A stretch of 55,853 nt of DNA, filler included, from Bipalium vagum (taxonomy: Eukaryota): NCBI GenBank assembly GCA_037834085.1. It is 3 parts of 3 records of this genome, joined end to end, with 100 filler letters (N's around TTAATTAATTAA, not from the genome) between each part and the next. Parts side by side here need not be neighbours in the genome. Positions count along the whole stretch, not along the records: positions 21,662 to 39,898 come from JBBMKC010035468.1; 2 more parts are not named here. One strand, written 5' to 3'. This document shows positions 25,686-30,208 of the stretch, one piece after another. Under the pieces are notes generated by a model, which saw only the letters and a program-made list of their open reading frames with translations, had not been told where the DNA came from and did not search any database. The position numbers were made by a program, and so were the translations under genes. Every line of letters begins with the position of its first letter. Within the stretch, counting starts at the first letter, position 1.

Positions 25686-25890
25686 ATTCCAATAAATAGA
25701 ATAGATCAAGCTGCAAAGAAACATGTTGTAAAATTTATTTCAAAAGATTTAAAAAATAGCCATGTTGCTGATGCAGAAATAATACATGAAATATACAATA
25801 TTCAAAATACAACTCCAAGAGAAAAACTTGAAAGAGCTTTAGTAAAAGTAATTATGAAGGGGAAACTATTATTTGGTCAGGGTTTAACAA
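25686..25890 (+). pseudogene. Parvovirus-type phospholipase A2 domain (adintovirus PLA2X-like)
   Basis: Translates PINRIDQAAKKHVVKF.SKDLKNSHVAD..REKLERALVKVIMKGKLLFGQGL, matching the NxLDxAAxxHD..RHxAD..MKxK..GxG pattern. The catalytic HD now reads HV. Confidence 0.8.
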
Positions 25891-25940
25891 GACCTGTTAA
25901 AAATATTGCAAATGAAAATGTACTTGAAGACAAAGCATAA

Positions 25941-26078
25941 TTAATACCAGAAAATATAAAACAATTAGCATATGAACTTCATAAAGAATTTAGAAAACCT
26001 AAACACTATCTTAAAGTTAAAGTTTTTAGTAAAGATGATATTTGGGCAACAGATTTAACACTTGTATCAAGAGAAAAA
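25941..26078 (+). pseudogene. Maverick retroviral-like integrase, N-terminal fragment
   Basis: Translates LAYELHKEFRKPKHYLKVKVFSKDDIWATDL (compare LAxELHKP..V..xDDIWxADL). Truncated after the first catalytic Asp. Confidence 0.85.
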
Positions 26079-26115
26079 TCCGTTTCTGAAAAAATTCAAA
26101 ATTTTATTTTAAAAA

Positions 26116-26530
26116 TGATTTTAAATTTACTTGAATTCTTCTGTAAATATGGAATTAATACAACTTCCAATTTTGATTTATTAGATATAGCTGAAGATTT
26201 AGAGATACATTTAAAAGTTTTAATGCGGGTTGAAATCTATTGTTTTTTCAAACAACGAAAGATTAATTAAAAGAAAAACATATTAAATCAGAAATTCAAT
26301 CCGAATGATTAAGTATCATAGTTGTGCCTTTAATTATTAAAATAGAAATCAAAAAGGAATTCATTGGGTTGGATATTACAATGGTTATTACTTTGATTCT
26401 TATAGTTTACCACCCCTTAAAGATTTAGATAAACATGTAAAGGAACATAATACATTTGATTTTCAAAATGAAACGGATTTAAAATATTTGCGGACAATTA
26501 ACCTTTTTTTATATCAACTTTACATTTGTA
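26116..26530 (+). pseudogene. Adenain-like cysteine (maturation) protease relic
   Basis: Motifs TSNFDLLDIAEDLEI..VLMRVEI, KGIHWVGYYNGYYFDSYSLPP and FQ..(frameshift)ICGQ give the His, Asp and Gln/Cys catalytic motifs in order. Confidence 0.85.
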
Positions 26531-27449
26531 AAAAGTTTGAAAATATTTTAAAAGAAATTATTTTTTTACACTAGAAGAATATAAAAAAATTATGAAAAAA
26601 TAAAACCATTTTTTTGGGAATCAACTTCGAAATCAATAACAACTGAATTTAAAGTTATGAAATTTTAAAAAATCTCTGTAAATACAATTTACATTTAATG
26701 CAAAAAATCAATTTTCAATAATAATTATTGCAAATAAACAAGAATATAAAAATGATAATATTGTAAATTTTTGAGCAATAAATAATTATCATATTTTTGG
26801 GTTGTATAATTCTTCCAGAAATTATTTTTTGTTGATGGACTAAGACGCATATCTGAGAAGACGAAAAATATAATTGAACTGATTTAATATTTTTAAGATA
26901 CTTTAATTTATATTTTTATTATAATTATGAAAAAATATAAATTTTTGTAAAATAAATAATAATCATAATTTTAGGTTTATATTAAATACCAGAGGAGGAA
27001 TAAAAAAATATGAAATCATATAATTAAAAGATTTATAAATGAAAGATTGAAAATTTTAGATATCTTTTTATCCTAATATTAGCTACAAAGTAGCTCTCTG
27101 AGAATATATCTCTATACTTTACAATGTAAAGTTCTAAAGACTTATTTTTAATTATATAAATTGGAAGAGAAATTTGATAATGAAAAATGTATGATGCACC
27201 ACAAAGTGGTTTGGAGTTTTAGTCCGAAAAACCAACTGCTCCTATTTATGAGCTTCGTTGAAACTGAAGACAAAATCCGATAACCTAAATTAGATGAAAC
27301 ATTTTCAAACCAATAGCAGTTCTTTAATCAAGTGATTAAACAATACGAAAAAATAAAAATTGAAAATTTTTTAAATGAGAAAAAGGTTTCAGAGAATTTT
27401 TTAAAACATTAGAAAAAATTAAATAAGTGAAATATTTTTTAATTTAAAA

Positions 27450-28280
27450 ATGGATAAGAATGACCTTCAAAAAAGAATTGAAAATTGAAAGTAATAATAA
27501 TCTTTAAAAATTTAATAGATACAAAAAAAATTGAAACTAATCAATTAAATCAATGGAAAGCAGAAAGTGATTTAGCTTTAGAAATTTGATACATTTCATA
27601 AACCTGTTACTGAGAAATTAGATGAAAATAAGAGTATAGATAACAAAGGTTACCATTTTAAAATGAAAAATCTAATTACAGAACAATGTAATATAATTTC
27701 AAAACTACAAAATACCCATTATTAATTTAATTTAATTTAGATGAAAATTTACCTAAAAAATAAAACCATTGTTTGATGGAGACATAATGAAAAAAAATAA
27801 TATTGATCATTTAATCGTGAAAGAAGATGATGTACCGAAAATACAAAATATGAAAAATAAAAAAGAATTTGAAATAAATAATGATCTTAGAGCAATGTTA
27901 TGGGGAAAATCCGATTGAGATTATAATCTAAAGAAATTAAAAAGTATTTAGATATCATAAAAGATATAAAAGTTCTTTTAAATTAACCATATAATCATAT
28001 TAAATTTTTAAAAGAACAATTAACACGTAAAACAGGAACTGGTTTAGGTTTTCATACTTATAAACATAAATGCAGCGAAGCTGCAAACACCGAAGGTGTC
28101 CATTCTCTTGATCCGACTTCTTTTTTAGCAACGTCGTTGTATAAATTTATAACTTTAAGAAAAATATTTAGCTGTTAAAATAGCAGATCATGATAATATT
28201 GATCATTTAATTTTAAAAATAATAGATTAATTAAAAAAGCAAAAAAGTATAACTGATTATTATAAAAAAAATAAATGTTA
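27450..28280 (+). pseudogene. Decayed Maverick accessory/virion-core gene
   Basis: Lys/Asn/Glu-rich broken frame ending in KTGTGLG..LDP and YLAVKIADHDNIDHLILKIID*LKK. This resembles the GxG and AGNxxxxNEIxxIxxEL tail of Maverick proteins as recalled. Confidence 0.45.
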
Positions 28281-28317
28281 AATTTGATCTAAATCATGAT
28301 TAAAATATATATTAAAA

Positions 28318-28914
28318 ATGGAAAAATCTCTACAAAAAATATCAAATCTTTTATCTCAAAAATGTTCAGCATCACTTATTGTAGAAAGTAAAGATTCAGA
28401 TATACACCACTAAATCTTAATCCAAATTTTAACTATGATTTAGCTCTAATTTATTTTTTAACTTATAATTCTATTTTAAATGGTACTGAAAAAAAATAGA
28501 ACAGATGTAACTGTTATAGATTCAAAAGGAAAAAAGTATCTCAAAATCAAAGATAACTCCAGGAACATTTGAAATTTTTGATATATTTGCATATATTGAA
28601 AATGGATTAAAAAATATAAAAGAATTAGAACCATTAAAACCAGAAGAGTATTATGTAACATTTAATGGTAATCCAATTTTTCAAAATTTGTAATGAAAAT
28701 ATTTAAAGGTTGTGTTGCTTCTTTTCTAGAAAATTCAATTGGTGAAATATTAGGATTTGAAAGCAAACGTTACATAGAAAGTTATTATGAATCAAAACCA
28801 GTGAAAACTTCAAAGATAAATAAAATCATGATTGATTGTAATATTGTTGAAGGAGGATTTTATAATGGTAGAAGAACAGATATTATTTTTGATTTTCCTT
28901 CGAATAATGTTTAA
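28318..28914 (+). pseudogene. Minor capsid protein (penton) relic
   Basis: Translates MEKSLQKIS..SLIVESKDSDI/PLNLNPNFNYDLALIYFLTYNSILN. ORF 28693..28914 continues NSIGEILGF..KINKIMIDCNIVEGGFYNG..IIFDF. Confidence 0.8.
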
Positions 28915-28949
28915 TTTCATTATATTGTGATTCTAAAATTGTGGATTAT

Positions 28950-30208
28950 TTGATTTTACATATAATTCCTCGGTTAATAGGTTTTTTGAATTGATCCTTC
29001 CTCATTTTCCCTGAAAAATATTTTTTATTATAACTCTCAAATCTGTACAAATCACAATTAGAATTTTATTTGTAAAATAATTTTTAAATTCAAAATAATT
29101 CTCTTTTGGGAATGTAAGTTTTGATTCTTTATGTTCTCTACAATATTCAATATGCTCATCTAATACACTAATTGATCTGAATGAATTTAAACATTTCATA
29201 CAGATGAAATTGTTAAAAGATTTTGTATTTGTTAAAATATTCATATTTTGCATAAGACGTAATGATTTTTATATTGTAATAAATTTCTCTTTCGATTGAT
29301 TTCGGTTTTGCATTGCAATGATTGAATAAAAGAGTTGAAATTTCCCAATCATTTTCTAATTCGAAAATATTTATTTTATTTATTTTTATTTTTGTAAAAT
29401 AAATTTATTTACACAATCAATGGAAATGGGAAAATCAATATTATTTAAGTTAAATTCATTTATGAAGGATGAATAATTATTTACCCTATCAGAATGATTT
29501 TCAGATTGATAAAAGTGTGAAATATTTTGTGAAACATTTATTATCTTTGTTCTTAATATTGACTACTTATTGTACTTTTTTGGTATTTTTATATAAGTTT
29601 AACGTATACTAATGATTGATAATCAGTTAGATCAATTCGTATTTCTTTAATATAATTAAATATCTATTCCGAACCCATTAATTCTTTTTCTTCCATATAC
29701 TTATTTAATTTAAGGAACATTAGATCGTTTATTTGATTAAATTCATTTATATTTAATATTTTATAATTGTTAGAATAAAAATCTTTATAAATGATATCAT
29801 TCTCTTTATTATATTGACATTTTACTTTAACTTGTAAGAGAAACTGGAATTTTACTTTTCTAAATGATTTAACTATTAATTCTATTAATTACGTCTTCCT
29901 TTAAATGATTTAAGTTCTTTATATTTTGATCTGTTTTAATTAATTTATATTTTGAATTAAAATATTTATTAATGTGATATTTATATTTTATACCAACTAA
30001 TTAAATTTTAAAATATTTTGTGAATACCTATATATTTTTATAAATTATTGGATTCGGGGGTAATTCATTTAATATACTTTTAACACCATCATTATCTATC
30101 ATCTTACTTGTATTTGCTTATGGTTTCTCATGAGAAATTAATAAATTTCTTTTTTTAATATGTATTACACACTTCACATTTATATGCGCACAAAAGGGTA
30201 TTGCTCAT
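28950..30208 (-). pseudogene. pPolB N-terminal relic of a Maverick/adintovirus
   Basis: Motifs YKCEVCN near the start, KFQFLLQV, ELMGSE*IF..I.IDL.DYQSL, DRVNNY..LNNIDFPI and INIFEL. ORF 29002..29253 reads FICMKCLNSF.S..VLDEHIEYC..FPKENYFEFKNY..IVICTDL (exo-I-like). Confidence 0.82.

What the first reader, a model, noticed from the sequence alone, without database searches (positions are those of the whole stretch)
25686..30208. Hidden endogenous adintovirus-like Maverick with a virion-assembly module
Seen: across stops and frameshifts, this 4.5 kb carries PLA2, integrase, adenain-like protease and penton motifs on the plus strand, converging on a pPolB N-terminus on the minus strand. Only two small pieces appear in the ORF track. 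Known: this gene set is characteristic of Mavericks/Polintons and adintoviruses. Inference: it is a fossil of a capsid-encoding integrating DNA virus, possibly from a lineage not described in this host. The major capsid gene was not recognised.
Basis: partly seen in the sequence, partly recalled or inferred. Interest (0 to 1): 0.78.

Follow-up and report, generated by a model that had tools for sequence, protein, structure and literature searches.

The report
Decayed Maverick virus relic in animal
This stretch is the broken remains of a Maverick (Polinton), a DNA virus that inserts itself into animal genomes; such relics are common, and this one is ordinary apart from being distant from described families.

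Summary
The call holds; the interest score does not. The stretch is a decayed Maverick/Polinton of the group 2 (Alpha adintovirus-like) kind, in an AT-rich animal genome among mariner, Tc1 and Gypsy-type debris.

Two of the five named genes are confirmed by tools. The protease (26115-26589) and the penton (28318-28941) match intact database proteins, and a penton homolog folds like mavirus and adenovirus pentons. PLA2 and a 45-codon integrase stub match published Polinton sequences by eye only. The pPolB N-terminus rests on recalled motifs; no search confirmed it. No polymerase core, integrase core or ATPase was found.

The relic extends past the finding to about 32110, with a second penton, and a third fragment lies at 6390-7780. 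The three pentons differ (66% and 72% nucleotide identity in the two pairs that overlap), so several copies are involved. The missing hexon is probably 26600-27440, from position and recalled motifs only. One Maverick-type end motif sits at 30381-30386, without a partner. The host was not identified, so 'lineage new for this host' stays open.

The parts
25686..25895 (+). PLA2-like (PLA2X-type) gene fragment; 5' part missing, catalytic pair not intact
   Evidence: By-eye match, core and end, to Polinton-4_NVi and -6_NVi proteins in the PMC3671162 supplement; Pfam PF08398 below cut-off, E 0.077-0.093
25941..26075 (+). N-terminal stub (about 45 codons) of an rve integrase; catalytic core absent; runs in frame into the protease start
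   Evidence: By-eye match to Polinton integrase N-termini; no Pfam hit; one open frame 25941-26267
26115..26589 (+). Adenain/Ulp1-type maturation protease pseudogene, spread over several frames
   Evidence: phmmer E 2.8e-8; tblastn 2e-24 within the window, 64% and 51% in two frames; homolog model gives weak CE-clan matches; fits the published Polinton PRO alignment
26600..27440 (+). Gene G2, middle and 3' part: probable major capsid (hexon), unproven
   Evidence: Homologous to 30390-31260 (74% nt over 77 nt; score 109, 0 of 100 shuffles reach it); one gene from the penton as in PMC4028283; capsid identity from recalled motifs; Pfam negative
27450..28060 (+). Conserved Polinton accessory gene of unknown function, broken
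   Evidence: By-eye match to the reading frame upstream of the integrase in a Polinton entry of the PMC3671162 supplement; no library hit
28318..28941 (+). Penton (PX, minor capsid) pseudogene, 3' end cut off
   Evidence: phmmer E 5.3e-8; profile E 6e-21, positions 1-204 of 250; homolog model matches mavirus penton, E 2.6e-11; fits the published PX alignment
28945..30215 (-). Probable N-terminal third of pPolB (OTU-type cysteine motif, zinc finger); exonuclease and polymerase core absent
   Evidence: Recalled motifs only (located); PHROGs zinc-finger match E 1.4e-4; homolog search negative; core motifs not found in the window
30381..30386 (-). Candidate Maverick terminus, 5'-AGTAGT, facing the pPolB-like start about 170 nt away; no partner repeat
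   Evidence: End motif as in PMC8097293; chance within 300 nt about 0.05; no convincing second copy
30390..31260 (-). Gene G2, 5' part, second copy (probable hexon)
   Evidence: Homologous to 26712-26836 and to 6452-6632 (78% nt over 188 nt)
31320..31626 (-). Gene G1, internally shortened copy, directly after penton copy 2; capsid-like by recall only
   Evidence: 80% nt over 107 nt to 7163-7269; score 87, 0 of 100 shuffles; Pfam negative
31621..32110 (-). Penton copy 2, middle and 3' end
   Evidence: 66% nt to 28581-28914; profile E 1.6e-11
6390..7780 (-). Third fragment: penton 5' part (7729-7538), G1 (about 7490-6650), start of G2 (6632-6452)
   Evidence: Penton profile E 4e-11; 72% nt to 28424-28527; G1 and G2 homologies

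Best explanation
It is dead proviral DNA from Mavericks/Polintons of the group 2 (Alpha adintovirus-like) kind. The ancestor copied itself with a protein-primed polymerase, inserted with an rve integrase and packed itself in a jelly-roll capsid with a penton, a maturation protease and a PLA2 entry protein (established knowledge of the family; inferred here). After insertion the copies were cut by deletions and other transposons and filled with stops and frameshifts (shown). The 25.7-32.1 kb block holds pieces of at least two related copies (inferred from two diverged pentons and two G2 copies in different gene orders). The likeliest layout: a copy with its end at 30386 and pPolB reading inward sits inside or against an older copy, and lost its middle at the 28.9 kb junction. 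It cannot replicate, integrate or form particles on its own.
For: Protease and penton homologs. Penton fold: mavirus E 2.6e-11, then adenovirus and Sputnik pentons. By-eye fit to published Polinton PX, PRO, PLA2 and integrase sequences. PLA2X marks Alpha virion modules (PMC8502044). Three diverged penton copies and shared G1/G2 genes. Strand skew follows the gene polarity. End motif in the expected place and direction. Animal context: an NPY/PrRP-type receptor frame at 46804-47958, mariner, Tc1-type and LTR-type remains.
Against: The two defining genes are the weakest: pPolB has no tool support and the integrase is a stub without a library hit. The protease fold test is weak (pLDDT 55; no Foldseek match at E<=0.001; best Z 5.5, adenovirus protease Z 4.1). 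The penton model has pTM 0.53 and TM-scores under 0.4, and both models are of database homologs, not of the window's genes. No hexon hit in 24 + 48 pieces. No repeat pair or target duplication. All 27 penton relatives are unnamed apart from one 'hypothetical protein'. Atlas clusters nearest the homolog are labelled Nucleocytoviricota as well as Preplasmiviricota.
Confidence: 0.88

Rival explanations
1. The 25686-30386 block is one element with two converging modules and a large central deletion; only the part beyond 30386 belongs to another copy.
For: Converging modules are the usual vertebrate Maverick layout, by implication from PMC8097293 (two modules, with two exceptions named). One end motif faces pPolB. 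GC is a similar 20-28% in all seven pieces.
Against: No left terminus. Both genes at the 28.9 kb junction are cut, which fits either history. A Gypsy-type element abuts the left side. This is a variant of the best explanation, not a different identity.
Confidence: 0.45
2. The pieces come from a Polinton-like virus or virophage-like virus without its own rve integrase, or from a large DNA virus, captured passively.
For: Relatives are unnamed environmental proteins. Atlas labels include Nucleocytoviricota. The only fetched locus with a related protease, L001, shows no integrase or pPolB among its listed ORFs by eye.
Against: Integrase stub and PLA2 match Polinton sequences by eye. Of four L001 proteins tried, only the protease matches the window (E 0.001; the ATPase gave one E 0.19 hit elsewhere). 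The penton fits the Polinton PX alignment closely.
Confidence: 0.07
3. One piece has been taken into use by the host, for example the open PLA2 frame or the integrase-protease fusion frame.
For: Two open frames of 100 and 109 codons in a region where others are short.
Against: The PLA2 catalytic pair is not intact and its 5' part is missing; the protease's catalytic half lies in other frames; no expression or conservation data.
Confidence: 0.03
4. The motifs are chance matches in AT-rich DNA.
For: 20-25% GC; Pfam finds nothing above cut-off in the finding.
Against: Whole-library E-values of 1e-8, no profile hits on the reversed window, three homologous copies. Holds as a real risk only for the pPolB, G1 and G2 labels.
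Confidence: 0.01

Closest known systems
Group 2 Polintons/Mavericks of invertebrates (Polinton-4_NV, -4_NVi, -6_NVi, -2_TC, -1_CB in the PMC4028283 and PMC3671162 supplements)
   Same: Penton, protease, PLA2 and integrase N-terminus fit these sequences by eye; end motif of the (AGT)2 type. The 'group 2' label for these names is recalled.
   Different: Fragmentary; no ATPase, polymerase core or repeat pair found; gene order differs between the window's own copies; no identity figures, since the published sequences could not be loaded.
Alpha adintoviruses (Mayetiola class; PMC8502044)
   Same: PLA2X, adenain and penton clustered; PolB said to start with an OTU domain.
   Different: The class is defined by the PolB core, which is absent here. 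In the Alpha map as read from the figure text, FtsK lies between integrase and PLA2X; here PLA2 precedes the integrase stub and no FtsK was found.
Unnamed database proteins P0001, P0005 (protease) and P0002, P0004, P0006, P0011 (penton)
   Same: Closest sequences found: protease 64% over 39 aa and 51% over 70 aa; penton 45% over 76 columns to P0006, 25-38% to the other 29.
   Different: Intact, unnamed, no genomic context. The window's penton piece has a long branch (1.21) and falls in no well-supported clade (79 columns, weak).
Schmidtea Polinton-1_SM and -2_SM
   Same: Capsid-encoding Polintons in an AT-rich animal (listed). Relevant only if the host is a planarian, which is a guess.
   Different: Their proteases look like a different type from the window's, by eye.
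Degraded Beta adintovirus relic on human chromosome 7 (PMC8502044)
   Same: Same state: pseudogenes broken by stops and frameshifts, some named by synteny only.
   Different: Beta class with GasderminX rather than PLA2X.

Membership tests
Polinton/Maverick | [quoted passage not shown] | tested here: inconclusive
   Only a probable N-terminal third, by recalled motifs; searches negative; four core motifs absent from six frames, an insensitive test on decayed DNA
Polinton/Maverick | rve integrase | tested here: inconclusive
   45-codon N-terminal stub matches published sequences by eye; no catalytic core; no library hit
Polinton/Maverick | Adenain/Ulp1-type cysteine protease | tested here: met
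   weak fold and PDB sequence support
Polinton/Maverick | Single jelly-roll penton (PX) | tested here: met
Polinton/Maverick | Double jelly-roll major capsid (PY) | tested here: inconclusive
   Candidates G2 and G1 by position and recalled motifs; Pfam negative; no homolog search was left for them
Polinton/Maverick | FtsK-type packaging ATPase | tested here: inconclusive
   No Walker A motif and no match to the distant L001 ATPase in the block; both tests are weak on decayed, truncated DNA
Polinton/Maverick | Terminal inverted repeats with (AGT)2 or (AG)3 ends and a 6-bp target duplication | tested here: inconclusive
   One end motif at 30381-30386 (p about 0.05); no partner; a duplication needs both ends
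Alpha adintovirus | PolB with OTU domain plus pfam03175 core | not testable with these tools
   The core is not in the window; the OTU motif is recalled
Alpha adintovirus | PLA2X in the virion module | tested here: inconclusive
   By-eye match; Pfam below cut-off; PDB search gave only FKBP3
Known Repbase/Dfam Polinton family | High nucleotide identity to a curated family | not testable with these tools
Polinton-like viruses / virophages | Capsid type of those groups and lack of an rve integrase | tested here: inconclusive
   L001 capsid-sized and penton-sized proteins give no match to the window at E<=1; one distant example only

The most novel reading that the evidence does not exclude
An undescribed Alpha-type Maverick lineage, under 50% identical in its penton to anything in the protein sets, that carries two different jelly-roll capsid genes in tandem behind its penton (G1 then G2, seen in two copies) and invaded a host whose described Mavericks are of another type. 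Both genes look capsid-like by recalled motifs only and show no similarity to each other (3 of 3 comparisons at shuffle level). One paper search for duplicated capsid genes gave five listings, none opened.
Probability: 0.15. Interest if true: 0.5.

Novelty: new member of a known kind. Interest (0 to 1): 0.22.

Why it matters
Little by itself. Integrase-linked pPolB1 genes were found 20,702 times in 960 eukaryotic genomes and in 17 of 23 invertebrate phyla (bioRxiv 10.1101/2023.08.22.554363), and most copies are decayed. It is useful as a probe: Pfam misses it entirely, so such relics may go unannotated, and three fragments in 56 kb suggest a populous family in this genome. It would matter more if intact copies showed two capsid genes or a lineage absent from current trees.

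Tried and rejected
Pfam on six long read-through frames of 21700-34001: one hit, the neighbouring reverse transcriptase. Pfam on 78, 24 and 48 pieces: no Maverick family above cut-off. Pfam on the 11 homologs: nothing meaningful. PHROGs (23 proteins) and NCBIfam (19): nothing relevant. Word-seeded homolog searches for PLA2/integrase and pPolB: no hits, weak tests. Atlas with the window's penton piece: score 0.75, uninformative. PDB sequence searches: penton profile 0 hits, protease profile only E>=0.14 with an antibody on top and ASFV and adenovirus proteases below. Phage collection: no match, twice. Prokaryotic genome contigs: penton 0 of 101 candidates, protease 1 of 34 (L001, distant). Rfam: 0. 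The cluster look-up for names of the homologs could not be made. Supplement searches without hits: PMC8502044, whose held text is cut before its protein files; PMC4862687 for the host receptor; PMC10328495. The motif shuffle test (0-1 of 200 shuffles per motif) is not counted as proof, since the patterns were fitted after seeing the window. The idea that G1 and G2 are detectable paralogs was tested and not supported. A second AGTAGTGG at 8194 was treated as chance. Metagenome and viral contig collections stayed unchecked, so no intact relative with gene context was seen.
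Full report
VERDICT. The stretch is a decayed Maverick/Polinton relic, most like group 2 Polintons and Alpha adintoviruses. Two of its five named genes are confirmed by tools, two by eye against published sequences, and one (pPolB) only by recalled motifs. It is a new member of a known kind, interest 0.22.

SETTING. The window is 17-40% GC per kb with four N runs forming two assembly gaps. Pfam on 103 stop-free pieces of 62 aa or more outside 25550-31900 found mariner and Tc1-type transposase domains, a reverse transcriptase with a zinc knuckle at about 24000-24900, and one rhodopsin-family receptor frame at 46804-47958. 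Its best solved relatives are PrRP and NPY receptors, so the host is an animal. A flatworm is my guess from recall; a motif search in the supplements of PMC4862687 found nothing, so the host stays unidentified. Rfam found nothing.

PROTEASE AND PENTON. One frame of 26341-28911, with stops read as X, found 11 of 1.84 billion proteins at E<=0.001: four protease-like and seven penton-like. Mapping these back is circular for that frame, so I weighed the independent matches. P0001's first 39 residues match 26121-26237, outside the query, at 64%. Penton homologs match other frames at 28404-28487, and two further copies. A profile of 30 penton homologs covers positions 1-204 of 250 at 28318-28935 (E 6e-21), 32056-31694 (1.6e-11) and 7723-7550 (4e-11), with no hit on the reversed window. 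A model of P0002 (pLDDT 76, pTM 0.53) matches mavirus penton at E 2.6e-11, then adenovirus and Sputnik pentons, with TM-scores under 0.4. The window's penton also fits the published PX alignment by eye (PMC4028283 supplement 3). The protease model is poor (pLDDT 55): no Foldseek match at E<=0.001, though SENP/NEDP1 proteases lead; the wide search ranks CE-clan enzymes first, best Z 5.5 (rmsd 3.9, 108 aligned), adenovirus protease Z 4.1 (rmsd 4.5, 112 aligned). By eye the window's protease follows the PRO-1_CB/PRO-2_TC type of the published alignment, not the Schmidtea type.

PLA2, INTEGRASE, pPolB. The PLA2 piece matches two Nasonia Polinton proteins by eye from core to end. Pfam support is below cut-off and not the top hit. 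Its 5' part is missing and its catalytic pair is not intact. The integrase is a 45-codon N-terminal stub resembling published Polinton integrases; it runs in frame into the protease start, so the rest was deleted. The minus-strand piece has an OTU-type cysteine motif and a zinc finger that I recall from Polinton pPolB N-termini. PMC11161782 describes a terminal-protein domain followed by an OTU domain there, but its alignment is a figure I could not see. All searches on this piece failed or gave zinc fingers only. No polymerase-core or Walker A motif occurs in the six frames.

BEYOND THE FINDING. Self-comparison shows 28581-28914 against 32110-31778 at 66% and 28424-28527 against 7646-7544 at 72%. 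Two unnamed genes recur. G1 lies at 31626-31320 and about 7490-6650; G2 at 31260-30390, 6632-6452 and, on the plus strand, 26600-27440. All five same-gene comparisons beat 100 of 100 shuffles. Of seven cross-gene comparisons none did; the two lowest counts were 4 and 6 of 100. The order is penton-G1-G2 in two copies and protease-G2-accessory-penton in the finding. PMC4028283 says the penton gene lies directly before the major capsid gene or, more often, one gene away. G2 is one gene from the penton in both layouts, and its pieces span roughly 420-480 codons (my estimate from the coordinates), so G2 is my candidate hexon, at about 0.6. G1 also looks capsid-like by recall. Pfam supports neither. 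The accessory gene at 27450-28060 resembles a frame upstream of a Polinton integrase. AT skew is positive to about 28700 and negative from there to about 32000, matching the gene polarity.

ENDS. 5'-AGTAGT at 30386 faces the pPolB-like start and lies where the second G2 copy stops. It is the commonest vertebrate Maverick end motif (PMC8097293). With 9 such hexamers in that orientation in the window, the chance within 300 nt is about 0.05. A 12-base search with 2 mismatches gave 2 matches against 1.4 expected. No partner repeat or target duplication was found.

HOW IT WORKS. Shown: broken genes in several frames, deletions at the integrase and at the penton/pPolB junction, several diverged copies. 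Inferred from the family: protein-primed replication, rve integration, capsid assembly with protease maturation and PLA2-aided entry in the ancestor. Inferred from the anatomy: at least two copies in the 25.7-32.1 kb block. Whether the plus- and minus-strand halves of the finding are one element is open, near even odds. Nothing here could be active.

COMPARISON AND NOVELTY. It works like a Maverick relic. Strict membership is not closed: protease and penton are met, the two defining genes are inconclusive, and no feature was tested and clearly failed. Of 27 penton relatives none carries an informative name. A 76-column window piece is 45% identical to P0006 and 25-38% to the other 29, and sits on a long branch in no well-supported clade. 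So the lineage may be undescribed, but I could not compare it with Repbase, Dfam or the adintovirus protein files. Decayed copies are 96% of vertebrate Maverick loci, such elements occur in 960 genomes, and a comparable broken relic is published. Polintons are described in Schmidtea and expanded in Dugesia, should the host be a planarian.

PAPERS SEEN. PMC8502044: parts 1-3 of 6, first part of the supplement and one search of its cut text; the unseen File S2 bears directly on every by-eye label. PMC4028283: part 1 of 4, supplements 1, 4 and part 1 of 2 of supplement 3. PMC3671162: one passage and supplement passages. PMC11161782: passages and part 2 of 6. PMC8097293, PMC6431247, bioRxiv 10.1101/2023.08.22.554363 and 10.64898/2025.12.11.693146: passages. 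PMC4862687 and PMC10328495: supplement searches only. Others: search listings. The 'group 2' label and the pPolB, G1, G2 and hAT readings are recalled.

Noticed in passing
window 6390-7780 (-): Third Maverick fragment 18 kb away: penton 5' part, G1 and the start of G2.
   Followed up: partly
window about 22700-25527 (-): Decayed LTR retrotransposon (zinc knuckle, RVT_1 E 5e-15; Gypsy-type by recall) starting about 160 nt from the PLA2 piece; no LTR seen between them.
   Followed up: partly
window 46804-47958 (+): Uninterrupted 384-codon frame for a rhodopsin-family receptor, closest solved relatives PrRP and NPY receptors; the only host gene recognised.
   Followed up: partly
window about 32197-33000 (+): GC-rich short stretch that looks like a hAT terminus (recalled), followed by a decayed transposase-like region; it bounds penton copy 2. 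No Pfam hit.
   Followed up: no
window 1433-1735, 5414-5680, 17336-18180, 41571-41960, 43212-44235, 49199-49390: Mariner and Tc1-type transposase remains (Pfam HTH_48, Transposase_1, DDE_3).
   Followed up: no
window 21562-21661 and 39899-39998: Assembly gaps of 44 N, a TTAATTAATTAA linker and 44 N; artefacts that produce the top repeat hits.
   Followed up: yes
window 26745-26808 and 26920-26981: Short internal direct duplication (80% over 64 nt) inside G2.
   Followed up: no
window 12416-12768 vs 15871-16247; 19747-19830 vs 20155-20247: Two unidentified direct repeats (72% over 394 nt; 84% over 93 nt).
   Followed up: no
window 8194-8201 (+): AGTAGTGG, the same eight bases as the candidate terminus at 30386, about 450 nt from the third fragment but facing away; probably chance.
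   Followed up: no
L001 1-8741: An 8.7 kb contig in a Gammaproteobacteria MAG that looks by eye like a Polinton-like virus (capsid-sized ORF, protease, penton-like ORF, ATPase, fibre-like ORF); probably mis-binned.
   Followed up: partly
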